From Escherichia coli (GTDB lineage: Bacteria > Pseudomonadota > Gammaproteobacteria > Enterobacterales > Enterobacteriaceae), in assembly GCF_003334765.1 (NCBI RefSeq), contig NZ_QOWT01000013.1: a DNA stretch of 64,000 nucleotides; one strand, written 5' to 3'. Position 1 is the first letter of the stretch. Each line of letters starts with the position of its first letter. A program made the position numbers and the translations under genes. Under the pieces are notes generated by a model, which had not been told where the DNA came from, made no database searches, and was given only the letters and a program-made list of their open reading frames with translations. Positions 5,770 to 19,221 of the stretch are shown in pieces.

Positions 5770-7950
5770 ATGACAACTAAAAATATGAATACGCCACCAG
5801 GCAGCACTCAGGAAAATGAGATCGATCTGCTTCGTCTGGTCGGCGAGTTATGGGATCACCGTAAGTTTATTATCAGCGTGACCGCGTTATTCACGCTGAT
5901 CGCTGTCGCTTACTCGCTGTTAAGCACACCAATTTATCAGGCAGATACTCTGGTCCAGGTTGAGCAAAAACAGGGCAACGCCATTCTCAGCGGCCTGAGC
6001 GATATGATCCCTAACTCATCGCCCGAGTCTGCACCGGAGATCCAACTGCTGCAATCGCGCATGATTCTCGGTAAAACCATTGCTGAACTGAATCTGCGCG
6101 ACATAGTTGAGCAGAAGTATTTTCCGATTGTGGGTCGCGGCTGGGCGAGATTAACCAAAGAAAAACCAGGTGAGCTGGCGATCAGCTGGATGCATATTCC
6201 ACAACTGAATGGTCAGGATCAGCAACTGACACTCACGGTTGGGGAAAACGGCCACTATACACTGGAAGGTGAAGAGTTCACCGTCAATGGTATGGTCGGC
6301 CAGCGTCTGGAAAAAGATGGCGTTGCGCTGACTATCGCGGACATTAAGGCCAAACCAGGAACACAGTTTGTCCTGAGCCAGCGTACCGAACTGGAAGCGA
6401 TTAACGCATTGCAGGAAACCTTTACCGTTAGCGAACGCAGTAAAGAAAGCGGGATGCTGGAACTTACCATGACTGGTGATGATCCCCAGTTGATTACTCG
6501 TATTCTGAACAGCATCGCTAACAACTATTTGCAACAGAATATCGCTCGCCAGGCGGCGCAGGATTCACAAAGCCTTGAATTCTTACAGCGCCAGTTACCT
6601 GAAGTGCGCAGCGAGCGGGACCAAGCGGAAGAAAAACTCAACGTTTATCGCCAGCAGCGCGATTCGGTTGACCTTAACCTGGAAGCCAAAGCCGTTCTTG
6701 AGCAGATTGTGAACGTTGATAATCAACTCAATGAGCTGACCTTCCGCGAGGCAGAGATCTCCCAGCTGTATAAGAAAGATCACCCAACTTATCGTGCGCT
6801 GCTGGAAAAACGCCAGACGCTGGAGCAAGAACGCAAACGCCTGAATAAGCGGGTATCGGCAATGCCTTCCACCCAACAGGAAGTGTTGCGTTTAAGTCGT
6901 GACGTAGAAGCGGGCCGTGCGGTATATCTGCAATTACTTAACCGCCAGCAGGAGTTGAGTATTTCGAAATCCAGTGCCATTGGTAACGTGCGGATTATCG
7001 ACCCGGCAGTCACTCAGCCGCAGCCAGTGAAACCGAAAAAAGCGTTGAACGTGGTGCTTGGTTTTATTCTTGGCCTGTTTATTTCTGTGGGTGCCGTGCT
7101 GGCGCGTGCGATGTTGCGTCGTGGTGTAGAAGCCCCGGAACAACTGGAAGAGCACGGCATCAGCGTTTATGCCACTATCCCAATGTCCGAGTGGCTGGAT
7201 AAACGCACCCGTCTGCGTAAGAAAAATTTATTTTCTAATCAGCAGCGCCATCGTACTAAAAATATCCCCTTCCTGGCGGTGGATAACCCGGCGGATTCTG
7301 CTGTGGAAGCCGTACGTGCGCTACGAACCAGTCTGCATTTCGCTATGATGGAGACGGAGAATAACATTCTAATGATCACCGGTGCGACGCCAGACAGTGG
7401 TAAAACGTTTGTCAGTTCAACTCTGGCAGCGGTGATCGCCCAGTCCGATCAAAAAGTGTTATTTATTGATGCCGACTTACGCCGTGGTTATTCGCATAAC
7501 CTGTTTACCGTGAGTAATGAACATGGCTTGTCGGAATATCTGGCAGGTAAAGATGAGCTCAACAAAGTGATCCAGCATTTTGGCAAAGGAGGCTTTGATG
7601 TGATTACTCGCGGTCAGGTGCCACCTAACCCGTCTGAACTGCTGATGCGCGATCGGATGCGTCAATTACTGGAATGGGCGAACGACCATTACGATCTGGT
7701 GATTGTCGATACGCCGCCGATGCTGGCGGTGAGTGATGCCGCGGTCGTGGGGCGTTCTGTTGGCACCAGCCTGCTGGTTGCGCGTTTTGGCTTGAACACC
7801 GCCAAAGAGGTGAGTTTGTCAATGCAGCGTCTGGAACAGGCAGGCGTCAATATTAAAGGCGCTATCCTCAATGGTGTGATTAAACGCGCCAGCACCGCTT
7901 ACAGTTACGGCTATAACTATTACGGTTATAGTTACTCCGAGAAAGAGTAA
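5770..7950 (+). CDS. etk: Etk (YccC) Wzc-family BY-kinase (tyrosine autokinase)
   Basis: ORF track 5770..7950, 726 aa; Walker A (GATPDSGKT), C-terminal tyrosine cluster YSYGYNYYGYSY. Confidence 0.9.
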   Translation: MTTKNMNTPPGSTQENEIDLLRLVGELWDHRKFIISVTALFTLIAVAYSLLSTPIYQADTLVQVEQKQGNAILSGLSDMIPNSSPESAPEIQLLQSRMILGKTIAELNLRDIVEQKYFPIVGRGWARLTKEKPGELAISWMHIPQLNGQDQQLTLTVGENGHYTLEGEEFTVNGMVGQRLEKDGVALTIADIKAKPGTQFVLSQRTELEAINALQETFTVSERSKESGMLELTMTGDDPQLITRILNSIANNYLQQNIARQAAQDSQSLEFLQRQLPEVRSERDQAEEKLNVYRQQRDSVDLNLEAKAVLEQIVNVDNQLNELTFREAEISQLYKKDHPTYRALLEKRQTLEQERKRLNKRVSAMPSTQQEVLRLSRDVEAGRAVYLQLLNRQQELSISKSSAIGNVRIIDPAVTQPQPVKPKKALNVVLGFILGLFISVGAVLARAMLRRGVEAPEQLEEHGISVYATIPMSEWLDKRTRLRKKNLFSNQQRHRTKNIPFLAVDNPADSAVEAVRALRTSLHFAMMETENNILMITGATPDSGKTFVSSTLAAVIAQSDQKVLFIDADLRRGYSHNLFTVSNEHGLSEYLAGKDELNKVIQHFGKGGFDVITRGQVPPNPSELLMRDRMRQLLEWANDHYDLVIVDTPPMLAVSDAAVVGRSVGTSLLVARFGLNTAKEVSLSMQRLEQAGVNIKGAILNGVIKRASTAYSYGYNYYGYSYSEKE

Positions 7951-7960
7951 AACTGAAAGT

Positions 7961-7996
7961 GGCCGGATGCGGCGTGAACGCCTTTTCCGGTCTACG
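7961..7996. repeat. REP (repetitive extragenic palindromic) element
   Basis: GGCCGGATGCGGCGTGAACGCCTTTTCCGGTCTACG between convergent etk and appA; matches the E. coli REP consensus. Confidence 0.7.
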
Positions 7997-8028
7997 CATT
8001 AGACAGTTCTTCGTTTGTCATCAGCCTC

Positions 8029-8059
8029 AGAGCATTCAGGTAACTGAATGCTCTTTTTT
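8029..8059 (+). terminator. Rho-independent terminator downstream of etk
   Basis: AGAGCATTCAG-GTAA-CTGAATGCTCT perfect hairpin followed by TTTTTT. Confidence 0.65.
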
Positions 8060-8064
8060 ATGCA

Positions 8065-9363
8065 TTACAAACTGCACGCCGGTATGCGTGCTTCATTCAC
8101 GATTTGCGTAAAACCTGCCAACGAACACATGCCCTGCGCATTTCGCTCTTCACATCCTGCCAGGGTCAGTTTCACCTCTCCGGGCGGCGTATTTAATGAC
8201 AGCGGCGTTTTATCACGCATCTGCTGTAAAGTCTGGAAGACCAGCGAAACCTGAATCCACTGGCTGTTATCGCTTAGCCGACGCCAGCGTTCAAACACCA
8301 GTTCACCACCTGGCGGCGTGTTATCCGGCTGACCGGGAAGCGTCCAGTTGAGCTCCAGTGCGCCGCCGAGATTTGCCAGATTAGTATCGTGTCCGGCGAT
8401 AAACAGCACTGAAGTGGGTAATGTCACACCATACGCCTGTTTTTGCGGTGGATGGGGCGTCAACGCTGTCTTGATCAAATCTAATAACGGGGTGGCGCGG
8501 CTGCGGGCAACCTCTGGCGTGCGTTGTAGCAAATAAAATTGCGCGTTATGCAAACTTAGCAAGGTGTTCCACTGGTGTGAATCGGTGATCCTTCCCCACC
8601 CCGGCTCCGGCATTCCCTGTGCTTGTTGCAGGAGAAATATCTCCGTCAGCATTGATGCGAGGCTTACCGCACCGGTTAATGAGACATTGTCGGCGCTCAC
8701 CTTGAGTTCCGATGGTAATGCCTGCGTTAATGAACAGCTTTCGTCCTGTTTCTCACGTTTAAGGCACAAGTTTGATTGCGGAAAATTAAGCACCCGTTCC
8801 AGTTCGCGAAACGCCGTTTGCCGATGCCCGGTAAAGTCAGCAATTGACCCTCCTGCCCTGCTGAGGATCGCGTCAGTCACGTTCGCGTTATCCAGTTGGC
8901 AAACGCCAGTTTTTAGAGGATTAAATAACGGATCGGGACTGGACGTATCTGCCTGGGTATGTACGGTTATTGCACAGTCAGGTGCCAGCCCGGCGGCGAA
9001 GGCTTCGCCTGTTTTACGGGTACGCTCGTCGACATCAGCAATAATCGCGACCTGACCAGACTGCGGGCAGCCCTTTTTCGCCAGCAATCCGTCGGCTACC
9101 AGACGCTGGCGTTGGTAATGTCCGAGATAGGCGATTAGCTCACCACCGCGCGGTGTCAGCCAACCCAGTTTTACCGGCCAGGTTGGCCATGCGTCTGGGG
9201 TGACATCCTGCATCAGTTGCGTGGCCTTGGTTGGAGCACGCACACCATGACGACTGACAATCACCACACTTTCCAGCTTCAGCTCCGGCTCACTCTGAGC
9301 GAATGCAGATTGCGGGGTTAACGGAATCAGAAGAGATAAAAATGGGATTAAGATCGCTTTCAT
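8065..9363 (-). CDS. appA: AppA periplasmic phytase / pH 2.5 acid phosphatase
   Basis: ORF-track frame 8065..9393 trimmed to Met-11 (432 aa); signal peptide, RHGVRAP histidine-acid-phosphatase motif. Confidence 0.9.
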   Translation of the reverse strand: MKAILIPFLSLLIPLTPQSAFAQSEPELKLESVVIVSRHGVRAPTKATQLMQDVTPDAWPTWPVKLGWLTPRGGELIAYLGHYQRQRLVADGLLAKKGCPQSGQVAIIADVDERTRKTGEAFAAGLAPDCAITVHTQADTSSPDPLFNPLKTGVCQLDNANVTDAILSRAGGSIADFTGHRQTAFRELERVLNFPQSNLCLKREKQDESCSLTQALPSELKVSADNVSLTGAVSLASMLTEIFLLQQAQGMPEPGWGRITDSHQWNTLLSLHNAQFYLLQRTPEVARSRATPLLDLIKTALTPHPPQKQAYGVTLPTSVLFIAGHDTNLANLGGALELNWTLPGQPDNTPPGGELVFERWRRLSDNSQWIQVSLVFQTLQQMRDKTPLSLNTPPGEVKLTLAGCEERNAQGMCSLAGFTQIVNEARIPACSL

Positions 9364-9442
9364 CGATATGTTTCCGCTTTTCATATCTGACATTATTGAT
9401 TGCCTGATGCGATGCTAATGCGCCGCATCAGGCCTACGTTCG

Positions 9443-9535
9443 TTAACTTTTCAGACGCGGGTCCAGCCATACCAACACAAGGGTGGAGAGCGAACACATC
9501 AACAAAATGCCGACGAACCAAAGTAAATACCACAT
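9443..9535 (-). CDS. appX: AppX (CbdX/YccB) 30-aa membrane subunit of cytochrome bd-II
   Basis: Not in ORF track (below size cut-off); hand translation of minus strand 9535 to 9443 gives MWYLLWFVGILLMCSLSTLVLVWLDPRLKS then TAA; sits 12 nt downstream of appB stop. Confidence 0.75.
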   Translation of the reverse strand: MWYLLWFVGILLMCSLSTLVLVWLDPRLKS

Positions 9536-9547
9536 TGTTTCTGCTCC

Positions 9548-10684
9548 TTAGTACAACTCGTTTTCGTTACGGCGGAGAGTTTCTGTTGTCATGCGCCCCC
9601 ACATTTTGTAGTAGCTCCAGAGAGTGTAGAGCAACACAATGGGCAAAAATATCAGCACGATTACCAACATAATGCTCAGCGTCAGCTGACTGGAAGTACT
9701 GTCCCACAACGTCAGGCTGGAGATCGGACTCACGCTTGACGGCATGACAAAGGGGAACAGCGTGATGCCTGCCGTGAAAATCACGCCAAATTGCATCAAT
9801 GATGCCATCAAAAATCCCCAACCCGGGCGACCACGATAAATCGCCATCACCGTCAGCAATGGGCAGAAGAATCCCAGCAGCGGGAAGATCCACAAAACGG
9901 GCGACTCGACAAAATTATTCATCCAGGCACCAGGTAGCACTGCCACCAGTTTCATTAACGGATTGGAAGGACCGTTAGCATCCTGGGCGAGCAGTACAAA
10001 GCCATCAATACCGACCCACAGCCAGTAACCCGCCAGCAAAAAGCACAGCATCACCAACAGTGCAGCGCGTTTGGTCGCCAGCTGTGAACGCAGATGAATC
10101 ACACCAACAGTTTTCAGTTGTAACCAGACGCCACCTTGCAAAATCACCATCCCAAGGCTGAGCAATCCGCACAATAAAGGGAATGGCGTCAGCAGTTGCC
10201 AGAAGCTGCCGAGATACTCCACGCGTAATTGCGGTGTGAAGGCAAACGGCACGCCGAGCAACAAGTTGCCGAAGGCGATACCGAAGACTACCGGCGGCAC
10301 CAGACTGCCGATGACCAGACCGGCGTCCCACATTTTACGCCAGCGTGCATCGGCGATTTTTCCGCGATAATCAAAGGCCAGCGGGCGGAAGAACAGTGAG
10401 CACAGCACCAGGATCATCGCCACATAAAAGCCGGAAAACGCCGCTGCATACACTCTGGGCCAGGCGGCAAATAATGCCCCACCAGCGAGGATCAACCAGA
10501 CCTGGTTGCCTTCCCAGTGTGCACCAACGCTGTTTATCACTATCCGGCGTTCATCATCATTACGCGCCACCAGCGGCAGCAGACAGCCGATCCCCATGTC
10601 AAATCCGTCGGAGATCATAAAGACCACCAGGATCACGCCAATCAGCAGCCACCAGATGAAGCGCAATGTTTCATAATCAAACAT
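9548..10684 (-). CDS. appB: AppB (CbdB) cytochrome bd-II oxidase subunit II
   Basis: ORF track 9548..10684, 378 aa, polytopic membrane protein; recognised as AppB. Confidence 0.9.
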
Positions 10685-10695
10685 GATTTTCTCCT

Positions 10696-12240
10696 TTACC
10701 CCTGTTGCTGCGTCGGTTGTTCACTCTGCATCGCGCTCGGCCCCAGACGGGCATATTTCTGCATCAGGTAGACTTCGGCGATTAAGAACAGGGTGTAAAG
10801 CCCTACGATCATGATCAGTGAGAAAGCCAGTTGTCCTGTGGTTAAAGCGGAGTGCGCGGAGTATGTCGGTAAGATGTCCTGTATCGCCCACGGCTGACGA
10901 CCAAACTCGGTCATAAACCACCCGGCTTCAATCGCAATCCACGGCAACGGCAAACTCCAGAGCGCCATTTTCAGCACCCAGCGATGCTGGTCGATTTTGC
11001 CACGCAGCGTCTGGACAAGCGCAATCAGCATCACCAGTAGCAGCAGGGAACCACAGCCCACCATGATGCGGAAACTCCAGAATACCGGCGCAACCTGAGG
11101 TATCGCGCCACGCATCGCCGCCTGGTACTGTGCGGCTGTGACATGATTCATATCCGGCGCATAGCGGGAGAGCAACATGCCGTAGCCCAGGTCACCTTCC
11201 AGTCCCCGGAATGCCTGCAACACATGCGGCTCACGATTGCCTTGCGATATTTCCTGCATTAACAGCCAGGCCATACGTCCGCGTTGCAAGCGTGGGTAGG
11301 TTTCAGCCATCAAATTCTTCAGACCCGGCACGGGTTTATCTAATGAGTGAGTGGCGAGGATCCCTAGCAGCGCGGGAATTTTGAGGGCAAAGGCGTTACG
11401 CTCTTGATCCTGTTCCGGCCAGGCAACCACATGGAACGGTGCAGGTGCAGGTTCCGTTTGCCACTCCCCTTCCATCGCCGCCAGTTTTACCGGTTGTACT
11501 TGCGCGACTTCATACGCAGAACTGTCTCCGAGTTGCAGGGTACCGATAATCGCCAGAGTACCGAAGACGGAACCGATGGCAAACGAGCGTAATGCGACAT
11601 CGCGCTCCCGTCCGCGCAGTAAATACCAGGCGCTGATCGCCATAATAAACATGGCCCCGGTCACGTAGCCCGCCATTACGGTGTGCACAAATTTCACCTG
11701 GCTGACCGGATTAAAGACCAGCTCGCTGAAGCTGGTCATCTCCATACGCAGGGTGTCGATATCAAAATGCGCACCGGTCGGGTATTGCATCCAACCGTTG
11801 GCATTCAATATCCACAACGCAGAGAGATTTGAACCGAACGCCACCAGCCACGTCACCAGCAGGTGCTGGTATTTATTCAGCCGTTGCCAGCCGAAGAAGA
11901 ACAGCCCGACAAAGGTGGATTCGAGGAAGAAGGCCATTAATGCTTCCATCGCCAGCGGTGCGCCAAAAATATCGCCCACATAGTTGGAATAGAATGACCA
12001 GTTAGTACCAAACTGAAACTCCATGGTCAGGCCGGTAGCCACGCCAAGAGCAAAATTGATACCGAAGAGCTTACCCCAGAAGCGCGTCATATCGCGGTAG
12101 ATTGTTTTGCCGGTGACCACGTAAATGGTTTCCATAATAGCCAGCAAAAAAATCAGCCCCAGGGTAAGGGGTACAAATAAAAAGTGATACAGCGCGGTCA
12201 GAGCAAACTGCCAGCGCGATAAATCAATGACATCCCACAT
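10696..12240 (-). CDS. appC: AppC (CbdA) cytochrome bd-II oxidase subunit I
   Basis: ORF-track frame 10696..12246 trimmed to Met-3 (514 aa) with AGGAG upstream; recognised as AppC. Confidence 0.9.
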
Positions 12241-12373
12241 GCGCACTCCTGTAGGCGAAGAGAGAAAAATAACCCGATAATGGTAGATCTCCCTCTTTAT
12301 CCTGAAACTCTACGACCAGAGGTATTCGCCGATTGCGATATTCATAAGACTGAAAGCGATACTTACCGTCTTT

Positions 12374-13231
12374 TTACGTCGGTGCAGCTTCCGCCAGCCA
12401 CTGACATACCTCGCTAAGCCGCTGCGCAGAGTCGACCAAATCTTCTGGCGCTGCCAGCACCACTTCCGGTATTGGGCAGATTTCATAACTTTCCAGTAAC
12501 GGGCCTTTTAAGGTGTCCGTACAGCGTAAATGCCAGACATGGCGTAACCCCGTGGCGTTGATATAGCTCTCGCCATAGCCAATGGTACGAATCTGAATAT
12601 TTCCCGGCCCACAGAGACGTGAGAGAAAAAGCCGATCAGCCTCGCTGATGGGTAATTGCGTCAGATTAATGCTGTGCGGCTGCGCGTCGGGGTTACGTAC
12701 ATGTGCCAGTAACTCATGCGCCAACGGTAGGCCATTCATCAGGCCATCAATGGGCGGCGGTAACAGCGAATCTGTCGGCAAGAGATTTTGCGTTGCCGCC
12801 TGCCACAACGCCAGCGGCGCGCAGCCAGCCTCCAGTTTGTCCTCCAGCAACTTTTCGCCGCGACGTCTGCGCACCCGCCATAATCCGCAGAAGATCGCCT
12901 CCTGTATTTCACTTTCACTGTCGTCAGCCTGCTGAATGCGCACTGACACTTCCCCTTCCCCGAGAAGCGTATTGATAAAGTGACGATCGTCGGCGTTGAG
13001 ATTTAACAGATCGACTGCCAGCACCTCGCCCAACGGCGGTTGGCGTTCGCTTAGTTGATGTTGTAACTCGTTTAACAGCGCAATCACCTGCGGGCTGTGA
13101 GCACATTGCTCCAGGGCCGCCATACTCGGTTCATCATTCACCTGACAGGTGATCGGCAGTGGATTCATGCTGAAACTGTCATCGTTCGGTTGCGTTCCTG
13201 GCCCCAGCAGATGGAAAAAAGTTTCGCTCAT
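12374..13231 (-). CDS. hyaF: HyaF hydrogenase-1 operon protein
   Basis: ORF-track frame 12374..13291 trimmed to Met-21 (285 aa); start overlaps hyaE stop by 4 nt. Confidence 0.85.
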
Positions 13232-13626
13232 GAGGCACGCTCCTGCTGCGGTTCGACAAGCCCGCGCATCAGGTTTATCAGTTCCGCCCACGGGTGAATA
13301 CCATTCAGCACGCCGCGATAGTTTCCGCCGGTAAACACTAAAGTGGCAGGAAAGCGAAAGACGCCAAAGCGATCGCCGATGGCTTCGCTCTGCTCAAGGT
13401 CAGCAATCGCCACCTGCCATGTATAGTCGGGAAACTCGCGCAGTAATTCGCCAATCATTACCGGATTATCGCTGACCTCTGGCGTGCGTTTCGGGTCACT
13501 GCTTAATAACACCACGCCGTCTGGCGCTTGCGTAAGCCAGTCGTCAAGACGGGATTCACTGACTGGCGTCCAGCCGCGCGCCAGCATTCGTTGCCACAAC
13601 GCATCAAATGGCGTGTCGTTGCTCAT
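13228..13626 (-). CDS. hyaE: HyaE hydrogenase-1 operon protein (Tat-signal chaperone-like)
   Basis: ORF track 13228..13626, 132 aa; 4-nt overlap with hyaD. Confidence 0.85.
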
Positions 13627-14210
13627 CCCTGCTCCTCCTGTGTCATCCGGTACTGGCGCAAGCGAACGCCTTCGTAATTTTCCATCGACAGACAGTCATA
13701 ATTGAGACAGCGCGATTCATTAGCCGGTTGCGGCACAATTCCCCACGCAGCAAGCTGCGCCAGCGCCGCCTGTTCCGCAGCGGGCAGTTGCTCCCGTGCC
13801 AGTTCGCTCAGGCTACCGCCGTAGTCGTCGAGCATTGCGGGTTGCAGACCGACGAGGGCAATATGTGCTGGCAGATGTCCGCGGATATCCGCCAGCGCCA
13901 ACACTTCGGAGAAACTGTTCTGATGCAGGCTCATTTTCTTCGCGCTGAGATAAGCCGGAATGCGTTCTCCGGCATAGGTTCGCAGCGTTCCAGGTTCCAG
14001 CCCGTAGTCAATGGCATCGAGAATCAACAGATGGCTGGCGCTTTCGACATACCCCAGCAAGTTCAGTCCCTGAGTACCGCCATCGACAATCTCCACATAC
14101 TCGGGCCAGTGGTAATGGGCATACAGCCGTTCCGCCACCCGCACGCCGAAGCCTTCATCGGCCCACAGCAGGTTGCCCAGCCCCATGACCACCACGCGTT
14201 GCTCGCTCAT
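13623..14210 (-). CDS. hyaD: HyaD hydrogenase-1 maturation endopeptidase
   Basis: ORF track 13623..14210, 195 aa; recognised as HyaD. Confidence 0.9.
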
Positions 14211-14914
14211 GAACGCTCCTTGTTACTTATTTTGCCAAATTTGTGGCTACGGTAGCCGTTGACCATGGTGGAGATCACCGTGTCGTCGGACATGATGTCT
14301 TCACGCAGCGCCATGTAGACATGACCGATCACAAACGCGCCAATCAGCCACATCCCCAGCCGATGCCAGCTGTGAATGTCCATTGAGTTGCCACCCGTCC
14401 AGTAGAAAAATTCCACCACATAACGGAACGGCGCAAAAATAGCGTACTGGCTGTGTTCGCTGTACAGCGCAAAACCAGTGATGATCATAAAGACCGACAT
14501 CAGGAAATAGCCGAACATCGCCGCCTGGGCGATGGGATTATGGCCTATATCGGCACTCGGACGTTTTGCCAGAAACAGATACCAGCGGATTTCATACCAC
14601 ACGCCCTGCCACCAGCTTTTACGCCATACCGGCACGATAAACAGCTCGCGGGAGTATCGATTGCCAACAAAAGCCCAGTAGATCCGCATCAGCAAAACCA
14701 CGGTAAAAACCATCCCGGCGCTGAAGTGAATTAACCTGATGTAGCCCATATAGAACAGATACGTCGCCTCGCCGCTGACGGAAGGTAGCGGCTTGCCGAT
14801 AAAGTATCCGGTGACCATCAACACCGCCATGCATAACACCGTCAACCAGTGCCAGATGCGCACTGGCGCTTCAAAGACATAGTGGCTGACAACGTTGTCG
14901 CTTTTCTGTTGCAT
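14207..14914 (-). CDS. hyaC: HyaC hydrogenase-1 cytochrome b subunit
   Basis: ORF track 14207..14914, 235 aa, four hydrophobic helices. Confidence 0.9.
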
Positions 14915-14932
14915 GATGATTCTCCTTCGCTG

Positions 14933-16726
14933 TTAACGCACCTGCACGGAGATCAGCTCGCTACCGTCGTCACCCAGCACGTGTGTTGAACAGGCGAGGC
15001 ACGGGTCAAAGCTGTGCAGAGTACGCAGGATCTCCAGCGGTTGCTCGGGGATCGCCATTTTGGTGTTCATCAGCGCCGCTTCATAAGCGCCAATCTGCCC
15101 TTTGGGATCGCGCGGGCTGGCGTTCCAGGTGGTCGGCACCACGCACTGGTAGAGATCAATCTTGCCATCGCGAATGGCGGCCCAGTGGCCTAACGCCCCG
15201 CGCGGCGCTTCGGTAAAACCGACACCACGGCACTCTGTCGGCCAGGTTGCAGGTTCCCATTTTTCCGTGGAAGCAGTGGCGAGATTGCCGTTTTTCAGGT
15301 TGGTCATCAGCTTGTCGAAGAAATACTGCAACTTATCTGCGGCCCACTGCGCTTCGTGCGCGCGGCACAAAATGCGGCCTAACGTTGACTGGATACCGGA
15401 AAGCGGCAGGTTCAACGCCGACATCATGCGATCGACCGACTCAACGGTCGCAGCATCGCCTTTGTGATAAGCGATTAACGTGCGCGCCAGCGGCCCCACT
15501 TCCATCGCGTTACCGCGCCAGCGTGGCGCTTTGATCCACGAGTAGCGTTCCTGTTCATTCAGCTGCTGAATGTTGGTATCGCTGCCTTTGACATCGCCGG
15601 GGTTGTACCACGGGTCGGTGATGCCATCGAACGGATGACGCCCGACCTGATCGTTGGGATATCGATACCAGGCGTGGTCGACAAACTCCTGCACCTGCTG
15701 CGGATCAACCAAATCCACTGGCAGCACATTGTTGAAGTCGCCGTTAATCACCGCGCCGCCAGGCATCAGCAGACTTTTCTCGCCAAAGTCGTTGGCAATA
15801 TCCGGGAATGCGCCGTAGCTGAGAACGCATTTATCAGAAAGACCAGTGCCGATTTCGCTCCACGGTTTGTTGAACTGACCGATGGCTAAGGCGTCGGGGA
15901 TCATCACGTTGTTAATGAAGTCCGCCGTGCGGGTGATAATTGACTGCACCAGGTTCAGGCGTTCCATATTGACTGCCCCGACCGCGCCGCTTTCGTCAAT
16001 GTTGATGGCGCAAGGCATCCCGCCGACAATCCAGTTTGGATGCGGGTTTTTACCGCCAAAGACCGCGTGGATTTTGACAATTTCACGCTGGAAATCGAGA
16101 GCTTCGAGATAGTGGGCAAAGCCCATCAGGTTAGCTTCTGGCGGCAGTTTGTACTGCGGGTGCCCCCAGTAGCCATTGCGGAAGATCCCCAACTGCCCGC
16201 CTTCAACAAATTTTTTCAGGCGGTTTTGTACGTCGAAGAAATAGCCAGGGGATGATTTCGGCCAAGAGGAGAGACTTTGCGCCAGTTCGGAGGTTTTCCG
16301 CGGGTCGGCTTTCAGCGCATCTAACACATCGATCCAGTCCATCCCGGCAAGCTGATAGAAGTGCACCAGATGATCGTGGCACCAGAGCGTTGCCAGCATA
16401 ATGTTGCGGATGATATTGGCGTTGTCCGGCACTTTAATACCGATAGCATCTTCGATGGCGTAAACCGAAGCCAGGGCGTGTACGCCAGTACAGACGCCGC
16501 AGATACGTTCAACGAACGCCCACGCATCGCGCGGGTCGCGCCCTTGTAGGATGATCTCCAGCCCGCGAAACATGGTGCCGCAGGAGACGGCATTGGTGAT
16601 CACATTCTGATCGTTAATATTCACTTCGCAGCGCATGTGGCCTTCGATGCGCGTAATCGGGTCGACCACCAGGCGGCGTCCGGCATTATTGATGGTGTAT
16701 CCCTGAGTTTCGTACTGAGTGCTCAT
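14933..16726 (-). CDS. hyaB: HyaB [NiFe] hydrogenase-1 large subunit
   Basis: ORF track 14933..16726, 597 aa; N-terminal RxCGxC and C-terminal DPCLACSTH nickel-binding motifs. Confidence 0.9.
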
Positions 16727-17841
16727 GCCTGTTTATCCTCATTGCCTGGCTGATGTTCGGTTTCTGTAGGTTGCTGGTTATGACGTCTGCGCTGGTCAAC
16801 GGCGCTGGCGACTGCGTGCACACCAACAGCCGCTGCCACCACGCCAAGCGCGGTTAAACCGACGGTATCGGCGGTGGAATGAGTACCCATTTGCGGAATA
16901 TCGACCACGCGGCTGTAGAACGAACCGCGATCCCAGAAACCATTTTCCGCACAGCCCAGGCAGCCGTGACCAGACTGGATTGGGAAAGAAACGCCATCAT
17001 TCCAGCGTGTGGAGGAACAGGCGTTATAGGTGGTAGGCCCTTTGCAGCCCATTTTGTACAGGCAGTAACCTTTGCGGGCAGCGTCATCATCCCAACTCTG
17101 GACGAACTCTCCGGCGTCGAAGTGGGCGCGGCGATAGCATTTATCGTGGATTCGCTGACCATAGAACATCAGCGGACGGCCCATTCTGTCGACATCTGGC
17201 AAGCGATCAAAGGTCACCATGTAAGTAATGATGGCGCTCATCACATCCGGGATCGGCGGGCAGCCAGGTACTTTGATAATGGGTTTGTCGGTGATGACTT
17301 TGTCGATAGGCGTTGCCTGCGTCGGATTGGGTCGCGCGGCCTGCACGCAGCCCCAGGACGCGCAGGTTCCCCAGGCGATAATCGCGCTGGCTCCGGCAGC
17401 GGCACGTTTGAGTTTCTCAATAAACGGTCGACCGCTGCTGATACAGAACATCCCCTGCTCGCCCAGCGGCGGATTACCTTCTACTGCGAGGATATATTTG
17501 CCATTGTATTGCGTGATGATGTCTTCAAAGACTTCTTCCGCCTGGGTTCCGGCGGCAGCCATCAAAGTATCGTCGTAATCGAGGGAAATCAGGGAAAGGA
17601 TGACGTCCTTCGCCAGTGGGTGAGCGGAGCGGATAAAAGATTCGGTACAGCAGGTGCATTCCAGACCGTGGATCCATACCACCGGAATGCGCGGTTTGTT
17701 CTCCAGCGCCCAGGCAATCTTTGGTGCCATTCCCGCGCCTAATCCCAGCGACGTGGCAGCCAGACTACAATATTTGAGAAAGCTGCGCCGGGTAACGCCC
17801 TGACGCCGCATGGCCTGGTAAAATGTTTCCTCGTTATTCAT
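16723..17841 (-). CDS. hyaA: HyaA [NiFe] hydrogenase-1 small subunit
   Basis: ORF-track frame 16723..17868 trimmed to Met-10 (372 aa) with GGAGG upstream; twin-arginine signal RRSFLK. Confidence 0.9.
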
Positions 17842-18226
17842 ATCGCACGTCTCTCCTCCTTGCGACACCGGCAGGACACCGGGCGCTTATGGTCGGCAAG
17901 CGACGTCCCTGTAGCAAGGCAAACCATCGCTTCACGTGAGATGCTGAAAACGAAAGCTCATCCTTCTGCACTGGCGCACGTCGCCAGAAAGTATTGTTAA
18001 TAAAGCGTAGTGAAACTTTTGCACAAAACAATACAAACTGTGTGGATTTATCTTTTAGCGATAAAAATGGACCTATTTTTCTTTTGGCCGGGCGGTGGGG
18101 ATGTTTAGCCGGTTGCTAAACGAGTAAAAGAGAAGGAATTCATGGTGATGAAATGATCAATCTGCTGTTATTTCACGCTATCAATGCACTTTTGGCTGTT
18201 TTTCAGGCAAACAAACAAATTAGGGG

Positions 18227-18255
18227 TTTACACGCCGCATCGGGATGTTTATAGT
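18227..18255 (+). promoter_or_regulatory. serT promoter (sigma-70 -35/-10 with GC-rich discriminator)
   Basis: TTTACA (18227-18232), 17-nt spacer, TATAGT (18250-18255), then GCGCGTC discriminator; 12 nt upstream of mature tRNA 5' end. Confidence 0.6.
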
Positions 18256-18267
18256 GCGCGTCATTCC

Positions 18268-18355
18268 GGAAGTGTGGCCGAGCGGTTGAAGGCACCGGTC
18301 TTGAAAACCGGCGACCCGAAAGGGTTCCAGAGTTCGAATCTCTGCGCTTCCGCCA
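18268..18355 (+). tRNA. serT: tRNA-Ser (anticodon UGA)
   Basis: 88-nt sequence GGAAGTGTGGCCGAGCGGTTGAAGG...TTCGAATCTCTGCGCTTCCGCCA with long variable arm, encoded CCA end and TGA anticodon in CTTGAAAA loop. Confidence 0.9.
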
Positions 18356-18364
18356 AATAAGATA

Positions 18365-18397
18365 AGGGGTTAGCTAAATGCTAACCCCTTTTTCTTT
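18365..18397 (+). terminator. Rho-independent terminator after serT
   Basis: AGGGGTTAGC-TAAAT-GCTAACCCCT stem-loop followed by TTTTCTTTT. Confidence 0.7.
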
Positions 18398-18561
18398 TGC
18401 CTGTCGAAATTCTCAGGGCGTTATATTTGCTTAATGACCTGATAATCCGCTGTTAAACCTGTTCCAGATCAAATGCGTAAAGATGGGTAAAACTTCTGGG
18501 TGCCCTTACGCATTATCATTATGCTGCTTAATTAATTACATCTGTCATAGAGAGTGACTCA

Positions 18562-19221
18562 ATGGATCGTATTGTTAGTTCTTCACATGACCGTACATCA
18601 CTGCTTAGCACCCATAAGGTGCTGCGTAATACCTATTTTCTGCTGAGCCTGACGCTGGCCTTTTCGGCGATTACCGCAACTGCCAGTACGGTGCTGATGC
18701 TGCCATCTCCGGGTCTGATTCTGACGCTGGTGGGTATGTATGGTTTGATGTTCCTGACCTATAAAACGGCGAATAAGCCGACCGGGATTATCTCCGCATT
18801 CGCCTTTACCGGTTTTCTGGGTTATATCCTCGGACCTATTCTGAACACCTATCTGTCTGCCGGAATGGGTGACGTAATCGCTATGGCACTGGGCGGAACG
18901 GCGTTAGTGTTCTTCTGCTGCTCTGCATATGTGCTGACCACCCGCAAAGATATGTCGTTCCTCGGCGGTATGCTGATGGCGGGTATTGTGGTGGTGCTGA
19001 TTGGTATGGTTGCGAATATCTTCCTGCAGCTGCCTGCTCTGCATCTGGCGATCAGCGCGGTCTTCATTCTGATCTCCTCTGGCGCTATCTTGTTTGAAAC
19101 CAGCAACATCATTCATGGCGGTGAGACGAACTATATTCGTGCCACGGTTAGCCTGTATGTTTCGCTGTACAACATCTTCGTCAGCCTGCTGAGCATTCTG
19201 GGCTTCGCTAGCCGCGATTAA
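18562..19221 (+). CDS. yccA: YccA, BAX-inhibitor-1 family inner-membrane protein (FtsH modulator)
   Basis: ORF track 18562..19221, 219 aa, seven hydrophobic segments; recognised as YccA. Confidence 0.9.

What the first reader, a model, noticed from the sequence alone, without database searches (positions are those of the whole stretch)
9443..17868. Hydrogenase-1 (hya) and cytochrome bd-II/acid phosphatase (app) operons in tandem on the minus strand
hyaABCDEF is tightly coupled (4-nt overlaps at A/B, C/D, D/E and E/F junctions, an 18-nt gap at B/C). It is followed after only 133 bp by appC-appB-appX-appA. No strong intrinsic terminator hairpin is evident in that 133-bp spacer, so transcriptional read-through from hya into app is plausible, in addition to the app promoter. 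Both are known to be induced under anaerobic, stationary-phase or acid conditions.
Basis: partly seen in the sequence, partly recalled or inferred. Interest (0 to 1): 0.25.

Follow-up and report, generated by a model that had tools for sequence, protein, structure and literature searches.

The report
E. coli hya and app operons
This is the textbook Escherichia coli gene cluster for hydrogenase 1 followed by cytochrome bd-II oxidase and acid phosphatase; the short gap between the two operons has no terminator signal and carries the known app promoter, so some read-through is plausible, but nothing here is new.

Summary
The window is E. coli chromosome, 100% identical to strain H3. On the minus strand it carries hyaABCDEF, then appC-appB-appX(cbdX)-appA.

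There are two coordinate slips. appA (8065-9363) lies outside the stated interval. The end at 17868 is an upstream GTG; the annotated hyaA start is 17841.

The spacer has no terminator-like hairpin. It folds no better than shuffles (z = 0.11) and is G-rich rather than C-rich, so it is a poor Rho loading site. Relatives in Escherichia, Edwardsiella and Citrobacter also lack a canonical terminator there.

The spacer does hold a conserved -10-like element. The published AppY ChIP-seq summit falls on it, and published YdeO binding lies in the same spacer. The literature treats hya and app as two units with separate promoters.

Read-through is therefore mechanistically plausible but undemonstrated. 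One 3'-end table shows no terminus at the junction and one after appX. Verdict: a known locus of low interest.

The parts
16723..17841 (-). hyaA, hydrogenase 1 small subunit with a Tat signal peptide
   Evidence: RefSeq annotation of identical DNA. TIGR00391 scored 675 bits against a cut-off of 179.5, and the TAT signal domain TIGR01409 matched. The start is the ATG at 17841, not the GTG at 17868.
14933..16726 (-). hyaB, hydrogenase 1 large [NiFe] subunit
   Evidence: NF007550 equivalog, 1440.8 bits against a cut-off of 1101. ATGA overlap with hyaA.
14207..14914 (-). hyaC, b-type cytochrome membrane anchor
   Evidence: NF007551, 537.3 bits against a cut-off of 442. 18-nt gap after hyaB.
13623..14210 (-). 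hyaD, hydrogenase 1 maturation protease
   Evidence: NF007616, 441.8 bits against a cut-off of 261. ATGA overlap.
13228..13626 (-). hyaE, hydrogenase-1 operon protein (putative HyaA chaperone)
   Evidence: NF008563, 285.6 bits against a cut-off of 210. ATGA overlap.
12374..13231 (-). hyaF, hydrogenase expression/formation protein (HupH family)
   Evidence: RefSeq names it hyaF. Two Pfam HupH_C domains, best E = 1.3e-33. No NCBIfam model matched.
12241..12373 (-). 133-nt hyaF-appC spacer. It has no terminator-like site, carries the appC promoter region, and is present in 5420 of 5426 complete E. coli genomes.
   Evidence: The AppY ChIP-seq summit at MG1655 1037695 equals window 12285 (PMC10057817; mapping). 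The YdeO ChIP-chip site lies in the same spacer (PMC4222967).
12280..12285 (-). Inferred -10 hexamer TACCAT, preceded by C, within the conserved block GATCTACCATTA (12278-12289). The inferred transcript start is about 12270-12274.
   Evidence: The block is GATCTAC(C/T)ATTA in all Escherichia loci except L003 (TTCTACTATTA), and GATCTACTATT(A/G) in the four Edwardsiella loci, while the flanks diverge. Its role as a -10 is inferred from position, resemblance to the consensus and the ChIP summit. No mapped start site could be retrieved.
12322..12364 (-). Conserved upstream block containing the direct repeat TATCGC...TATCGC, spaced 21 nt apart. It is a candidate activator-binding region.
   Evidence: Conserved across Escherichia while the middle of the spacer diverges. 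Which factor binds it is inference only.
12258..12297 (-). Purine-rich/pyrimidine-rich inverted repeat (AAAGAGGGAGA ... UUUUUCUCUCUU) that encloses the -10-like element. It could form a 10-bp hairpin only in RNA that enters from hya.
   Evidence: Local fold of -13.6 kcal/mol, z about -2.5 in E. coli and -0.85 to -1.9 in other Escherichia. It is absent in three Edwardsiella species and in Citrobacter. The support is weak and the complementarity may be chance between low-complexity tracts.
12246..12250 (-). appC Shine-Dalgarno sequence AGGAG
   Evidence: Lies within CTACAGGAGT, which is invariant across the seven sequences aligned. The Citrobacter locus has GATGGAGTT instead.
10696..12240 (-). 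appC (cbdA/cyxA), cytochrome bd-II oxidase subunit 1
   Evidence: NF011609, 1198.7 bits against a cut-off of 1025.
9548..10684 (-). appB (cbdB/cyxB), cytochrome bd-II oxidase subunit 2
   Evidence: NF011602, 832.8 bits against a cut-off of 681. 11-nt gap after appC.
9443..9535 (-). appX (cbdX), 30-aa accessory subunit of cytochrome bd-II
   Evidence: NF011333, 80.8 bits against a cut-off of 57. 12-nt gap after appB.
9402..9433 (-). REP-type hairpin in the 79-nt appX-appA spacer, with a published 3' terminus 6 nt downstream (window 9396)
   Evidence: Fold of -29.2 kcal/mol, z = -3.80. Weak naRNA4/REP-like Rfam match at 9365-9434. TRS 3' terminus at MG1655 1040584 (PMC10687069 supplement).
8065..9363 (-). 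appA, periplasmic acid phosphatase/phytase.
   Evidence: NF007552, 844.3 bits against a cut-off of 585. RefSeq annotation.
17842..18267 (-). hyaA upstream regulatory region, lying between serT and hyaA
   Evidence: AppY ChIP-seq summit at MG1655 1031990 equals window 17990. YdeO binds in the yccA-hyaA spacer. Sequence.

Best explanation
This is the well-known E. coli respiratory gene cluster. hyaABCDEF encodes the O2-tolerant, H2-oxidising [NiFe] hydrogenase 1 and its maturation proteins. Its genes are translationally coupled through ATGA stop/start overlaps. It is followed 133 nt later by appC-appB-appX, which encode the cytochrome bd-II quinol oxidase, and then by appA, which encodes acid phosphatase/phytase.

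The 133-nt spacer is mainly a promoter region. It holds a conserved -10-like element and upstream conserved blocks where the activators AppY and YdeO are found in vivo. Most app expression comes from this promoter.

The spacer has neither an intrinsic terminator nor a C-rich Rho loading site. RNA polymerase arriving from the hya promoter is therefore likely to continue into appC at some frequency, adding a second, hya-driven input to app expression.

The stronger RNA punctuation in the cluster lies further downstream, at the REP hairpin between appX and appA.

Shown: gene identities, junction geometry, absence of terminator signals, conservation of the -10-like block, and the published ChIP positions. 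Inferred: the exact -10 and start site, and the occurrence and size of read-through.
For: Identity: 100% DNA identity to annotated E. coli genomes and family models above their cut-offs.

Coupling: four ATGA overlaps.

No terminator: the scan found nothing in 12241-12373, yet it did detect the hairpins at the true unit ends at 18364-18390 and 8029-8054. A liberal search found only weak imperfect structures. Fold z = 0.11.

Poor Rho site: C/G is 0.60-0.83 in the 78-nt windows that start within or just upstream of the spacer.

Relatives: no canonical terminator between hyaF and appC in E. albertii, Edwardsiella or Citrobacter. Adjacency is kept in 10 of the 11 full-length relative loci.

Promoter: GATCTAC(C/T)ATTA is conserved out to Edwardsiella. 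The AppY summit at MG1655 1037695 equals window 12285. YdeO ChIP-chip binding lies in the spacer, and an isolated appC-lacZ fusion is YdeO-inducible.

3' ends: one table has termini at 1032129 and 1040584 but none in 1037607-1037739. The terminus at 1040584 sits 6 nt after a hairpin with z = -3.8.
Against: No direct evidence of a junction-spanning transcript was found. The curated view quoted in the literature lists hyaABCDEF and appCBA as separate units. A 133-nt gap is more typical of a boundary between units than of an intra-operon junction in E. coli (established operon-distance statistics, from my own knowledge).

The 3'-end evidence is negative evidence from a file that was truncated in storage. 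I did not identify its growth condition. Term-seq in LB/M63 gave no signal for the locus at all.

Rho-dependent termination cannot be excluded from composition alone.

The promoter scan with a strict sigma-70 consensus found no site in the spacer. The -10 assignment therefore rests on conservation and the ChIP position, not on a mapped start site (searches gave none).
Confidence: 0.85

Rival explanations
1. The two operons are transcriptionally insulated. hya transcripts end at or just after hyaF, through Rho-dependent termination or a non-canonical weak terminator such as the imperfect hairpin that spans the hyaF stop codon. All app expression then comes from the appC and appA promoters.
For: The literature and RegulonDB, as quoted in PMC4222967, list separate units. 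The appC promoter is self-sufficient in an isolated reporter. A 133-nt untranslated gap gives Rho some opportunity to load. An imperfect hairpin of about -11 kcal/mol overlaps the hyaF stop codon and has a T-containing tail. Induction ratios differ between hyaF and appC.
Against: There is no GC-rich stem followed by a contiguous U tract. The fold is no better than shuffles. The spacer has C/G below 1, which is unfavourable for Rho loading. appC has a strong Shine-Dalgarno sequence that should restore ribosome coverage quickly. No 3' terminus was mapped in the spacer in the table that did detect termini at both ends of the cluster.
Confidence: 0.3
2. hya and app form one ten-gene operon driven mainly from the hyaA promoter, and the spacer element is only a minor internal promoter.
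For: No terminator in the spacer. Adjacency is conserved across genera. The two share regulators.
Against: The strong AppY ChIP peak in the spacer has higher enrichment (43.9) than the one at hyaA (22.0). An isolated appC-lacZ fusion goes from undetectable to high activity with YdeO. appC is induced more than hyaF by YdeO in RT-qPCR, log10 2.64 against 1.66. The -10-like block is conserved.
Confidence: 0.05

Closest known systems
E. coli K-12 MG1655 hyaABCDEF (b0972-b0977) and appCBXA (b0978, b0979, b4592, b0980)
   Same: Same genes, order, overlaps and 133-nt spacer. The spacer sequence is identical to MG1655. Proteins are 99.8-100% identical.
   Different: Nothing of substance. The window is from another E. 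coli strain, 100% identical to strain H3 over 9.5 kb.
Edwardsiella hya-app clusters (E. piscicida, E. anguillarum, E. hoshinae, E. ictaluri; loci L008-L011)
   Same: hyaE-hyaF followed by appC-appB-appX on the same strand. The GATCTACTATT(A/G) block and the CCTACAGGAGT Shine-Dalgarno region are conserved. There is no canonical terminator between the operons.
   Different: The spacer is 398-533 nt and begins with an extra rubredoxin-like ORF (CxxC...CPxC) that overlaps the hyaF stop codon. No appA was found within the fetched flank.
cydABX (cytochrome bd-I) operon
   Same: AppC and AppB also match the bd-I models NF011677 and NF011579 strongly, and a small third subunit follows.
   Different: The scores for the bd-I models fall below their curated cut-offs, whereas the bd-II models exceed theirs. 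The genomic context next to hya is specific to bd-II.

Membership tests
Hydrogenase 1 (hya) operon, membrane-bound [NiFe] hydrogenase | Small subunit with a twin-arginine signal peptide | tested here: met
   TIGR00391, 675 bits (cut-off 179.5). TIGR01409 TAT signal at residues 16-45.
Hydrogenase 1 (hya) operon, membrane-bound [NiFe] hydrogenase | Large subunit that matches the Hyd-1 equivalog rather than the Hyd-2 one | tested here: met
   NF007550 scored 1440.8 bits, above its cut-off of 1101. The Hyd-2 model NF007778 scored 554.7, below its cut-off of 969.
Hydrogenase 1 (hya) operon, membrane-bound [NiFe] hydrogenase | Cytochrome b anchor plus the accessory genes hyaD, hyaE and hyaF in the order A-B-C-D-E-F | tested here: met
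   NF007551, NF007616 and NF008563 scored above their cut-offs. HyaF matches Pfam HupH_C. The order matches MG1655.
Cytochrome bd-II oxidase (appCBX / cbdABX) | Subunits 1 and 2 and the small subunit X match the bd-II equivalogs above their cut-offs | tested here: met
   NF011609 scored 1198.7 (cut-off 1025), NF011602 scored 832.8 (cut-off 681) and NF011333 scored 80.8 (cut-off 57).
AppA phytase / pH 2.5 acid phosphatase | Match to the AppA-family equivalog, located downstream of appX | tested here: met
NF007552 scored 844.3 (cut-off 585) at 8065-9363.
Intrinsic (Rho-independent) terminator between hyaF and appC | Compact GC-rich stem-loop followed directly by a U tract on the sense strand | tested here: not met
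   No site in 12241-12373. The liberal search gave only imperfect hairpins of about -11 kcal/mol with 4 non-contiguous T in 8. Fold z = 0.11.
Rho-dependent terminator between hyaF and appC | Untranslated stretch of about 80 nt that is C-rich, G-poor and unstructured (rut site) | tested here: not met
   C/G is 0.60-0.83 in the 78-nt windows that start within or just upstream of the spacer. Composition is only a proxy. Sensitivity to bicyclomycin cannot be tested here.
Single transcription unit hyaA-to-appA (read-through) | RNA molecules that span the hyaF-appC junction and originate at the hyaA promoter | not testable with these tools
   Only indirect data are available. No 3' terminus was listed in the spacer in PMC10687069 supplementary file 4. 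No informative signal in PMC7815308 or PMC6131387.
Independent appC promoter in the spacer | Promoter element conserved in relatives, with activator occupancy | tested here: met
   The -10-like block is conserved out to Edwardsiella. The AppY summit maps to window 12285. YdeO binds there in vivo and an isolated fusion is active. The exact start site was not retrieved.

The most novel reading that the evidence does not exclude
hya and app act as a conserved, terminator-less 'super-operon'. A substantial share of cytochrome bd-II synthesis under anaerobic or acid conditions would come from polymerases that started at the hyaA promoter, wiring H2 oxidation by O2-tolerant Hyd-1 directly to O2 reduction by bd-II. 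In this reading the purine/pyrimidine hairpin at 12258-12297, which can form only in such read-through RNA, modulates its processing or the translation of appC.
Probability: 0.15. Interest if true: 0.3.

Novelty: already known. Interest (0 to 1): 0.08.

Why it matters
It matters little for discovery. The genes, their regulators and their adjacency have been described since the early 1990s. The only open point is quantitative: how much app expression is driven from the hya promoter. An answer would refine regulatory models of the AppY/YdeO/ArcA regulons. For example, it could show whether the drop in app expression in an arcA mutant is partly a cis effect of lower hya transcription rather than acting only through appY, as PMC3798270 assumes. 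It would not change how either enzyme is understood.

Tried and rejected
1. Rfam scan of 7500-19000 at E <= 1. It found only serT tRNA and weak REP-like (naRNA4) and sX4 matches, and nothing in the hyaF-appC spacer.

2. Strict sigma-70 promoter scan. It found no site in the spacer, which fits an activator-dependent or sigma-S promoter.

3. Classic papers by Atlung and Brondsted (PMC196729, PMC177838) and the Thomason start-site paper (PMC4288677). None is held in the library.

4. SMRT-Cappable-seq supplements. They contain no hya or app entries.

5. Term-seq supplements (PMC7815308). They list no plus-strand (MG1655) 3' ends in the locus, only the etk terminator on the other strand.

6. The Conway operon paper has no supplements held as text.

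7. Kim 2012 start-site tables. They list no appC start site, only weak sites near hyaA and hyaD.

8. Literature searches for a named joint transcript (hyaF-appC, hyaABCDEF-appCBXA and similar). Nothing was found. Two broad searches were swamped by unrelated papers.

9. Column-wise covariation of the hairpin around the -10. I abandoned this because the repetitive CT tract shifts the pairing register between species. I used per-sequence folds against shuffles instead, and support was weak and limited to Escherichia.

10. The published AppY motif ATGSCWGM. By eye I saw no clear match in the spacer, and I did not pursue it.
Full report
**What is there.** A 9.5-kb stretch around the finding is 100% identical to the chromosome of E. 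coli strain H3. It is present in all 5426 complete E. coli genomes searched, and 5414 of them cover at least 80% of it. The RefSeq annotation of that identical DNA, transferred to window coordinates on the minus strand, gives:

| Gene | Window coordinates |
|---|---|
| hyaA | 16723-17841 |
| hyaB | 14933-16726 |
| hyaC | 14207-14914 |
| hyaD | 13623-14210 |
| hyaE | 13228-13626 |
| hyaF | 12374-13231 |
| appC | 10696-12240 |
| appB | 9548-10684 |
| cbdX/appX | 9443-9535 |
| appA | 8065-9363 |

MG1655 has the same layout, and window coordinate = 1049980 minus MG1655 coordinate in this region. NCBIfam equivalog or subfamily models exceed their curated cut-offs for nine of the ten proteins. The Hyd-1 and bd-II models pass while the paralogous Hyd-2 and bd-I models fall below their cut-offs. 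HyaF has no NCBIfam model but carries two Pfam HupH_C domains.

**Checking the observation.** All the junction arithmetic is right.
- hyaA/B, C/D, D/E and E/F overlap by 4 nt, each as ATGA.
- hyaB/C are 18 nt apart.
- hyaF and appC are 133 nt apart (12241-12373).

There are two small slips. The interval end 17868 is the first GTG of the longest ORF. The real start is the ATG at 17841, downstream of an AAGGAGGAGAG ribosome-binding site. The text also names appA, which lies outside the interval.

**The spacer.**
- *Intrinsic terminator:* the scan finds no terminator-like site on the sense strand between 12241 and 12373. In the same run it picks up the hairpins at the true ends of the neighbouring units, at 18364-18390 after serT and at 8029-8054 between etk and appA. 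A more liberal search finds only imperfect structures of about -11 kcal/mol with scattered T residues. The region 12230-12400 folds no better than dinucleotide shuffles (z = 0.11).
- *Rho loading:* the spacer is G-rich relative to C (C/G 0.60-0.83 in 78-nt windows). This is the opposite of what a Rho loading site needs.
- *RNA families and conservation:* no Rfam family matches the spacer. The spacer is present in 5420 of 5426 complete E. coli genomes, at 95% identity or more in 5415.

**Comparative evidence.** A scan of one genome per species with HyaF returned 12 loci. In Escherichia clades, E. albertii, four Edwardsiella species and a Citrobacter species, hyaF is followed on the same strand by appC-appB-appX. 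Spacers are 133-138 nt in Escherichia, 88 nt in Citrobacter and 398-533 nt in Edwardsiella. None has a canonical terminator between hyaF and appC.

Within Escherichia the 5' third and the 3' third of the spacer are conserved while the middle diverges. The block GATCTAC(C/T)ATTA survives, with one or two substitutions, out to Edwardsiella. It reads as a -10 hexamer (TACCAT, 12280-12285) preceded by a C. This is my inference.

**Published binding data.** The AppY ChIP-seq summit for appC is at MG1655 1037695, which is window 12285. That is exactly on the conserved block and inside the spacer, with enrichment 43.9 against 22.0 at hyaA (PMC10057817). YdeO occupies the same spacer in vivo. An appC-lacZ fusion moved to att is silent without YdeO and strongly induced with it (PMC4222967). 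Both papers, and the ArcA regulon paper (PMC3798270), treat hya and app as two co-regulated operons.

**Read-through.** Direct evidence could not be obtained.
- In the TRS 3'-terminus table (PMC10687069, supplementary file 4), the sheet that reports termini for this locus lists one at 1032129 in the hyaA leader and one at 1040584 after appX. It lists none in 1037607-1037739.
- The terminus after appX lies 6 nt downstream of a strong REP-type hairpin at window 9402-9433 (-29.2 kcal/mol, z = -3.80). The method therefore detects a 3' end where a structure exists and none where there is none.
- This is still negative evidence, from a file truncated in storage and an unidentified growth condition.
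- Term-seq and SMRT-Cappable-seq supplements carry no signal for the locus.
- No paper in the library names a joint transcript.

I therefore rate partial read-through as likely (about 0.6) but unproven. The spacer promoter is the main driver of app expression.

**Side observation on the spacer.** A purine tract (AAAGAGGGAGA) upstream of the -10-like block and a pyrimidine tract (UUUUUCUCUCUU) downstream of it can form a 10-bp hairpin at 12258-12297. If the start site is where I infer it, this hairpin exists only in RNA coming from hya. Its fold is modestly better than shuffles in Escherichia (z -0.85 to -2.65) but not in three Edwardsiella species or in Citrobacter. The repetitive CT tract prevents a clean covariation test. 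I treat it as possibly chance complementarity between low-complexity tracts.

**Verdict.** This is an accurately read but ordinary and well-described locus. The read-through idea is reasonable and consistent with everything I could compute. It would be a minor refinement of known regulation and needs a simple wet-lab test.

Noticed in passing
window 9364-9442 (hairpin 9402-9433): The 79-nt appX-appA spacer holds a strong REP-type hairpin (-29.2 kcal/mol, z = -3.8; weak naRNA4 Rfam match). A published 3' terminus (MG1655 1040584, window 9396) lies 6 nt after it. The clearest RNA punctuation in the cluster is therefore between appX and appA, not between hyaF and appC.
   Followed up: partly
window 17851 (hyaA leader): The same published table lists a 3' terminus at MG1655 1032129. 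That is 10 nt upstream of the hyaA ATG, inside its Shine-Dalgarno tract AAGGAGGAGAG. It could be a processing or decay product or a premature end. It is unexplained.
   Followed up: no
L008 4746-5048 (also L009-L011): Edwardsiella species carry an extra small ORF directly after hyaF, overlapping its stop codon. It has a rubredoxin-like CxxC...CPxC pattern (...ECNLCWWVYDP...HWRCPQCDADK...) and is absent from E. coli. It resembles the rubredoxin genes of O2-tolerant hydrogenase operons (resemblance recalled from memory, not tested).
   Followed up: partly
L004 4815-5160 (Escherichia sp. MOD1-EC7003): Here hyaF is followed only by a fragment of appC (about residues 143-202) and the C-terminal part of appA. 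appB, appX and most of appC and appA appear to have been deleted in this lineage.
   Followed up: no
L014 (250-bp contig labelled Ruminococcus sp.): A 250-bp contig in a Ruminococcus assembly encodes a stretch 100% identical at the protein level to E. coli HyaF residues 141-223. It is most likely E. coli contamination of that assembly.
   Followed up: no
window 16879-17742 (+) and 13608-14255 (+): Long antisense ORFs of 287 aa (opposite hyaA) and 215 aa (opposite hyaD) appear in the mechanical ORF list. They are probably artefacts of codon bias on the opposite strand, and neither is annotated in RefSeq.
   Followed up: no
window 8029-8054 and 8074-8091: The convergent genes etk (+) and appA (-) are separated by a hairpin with a T tract on the etk side only, where Term-seq maps a 3' end (MG1655 1041921). 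On the appA strand, a separate short GC-rich hairpin at 8074-8091 ends on the appA stop codon.
   Followed up: no
window 18268-18355 (+), 18364-18390: tRNA-Ser(UGA) serT lies divergent from hyaA and is followed by a perfect 11-bp hairpin with T-rich sequence on both strands. A weak sX4 sRNA Rfam match overlaps the tRNA.
   Followed up: no
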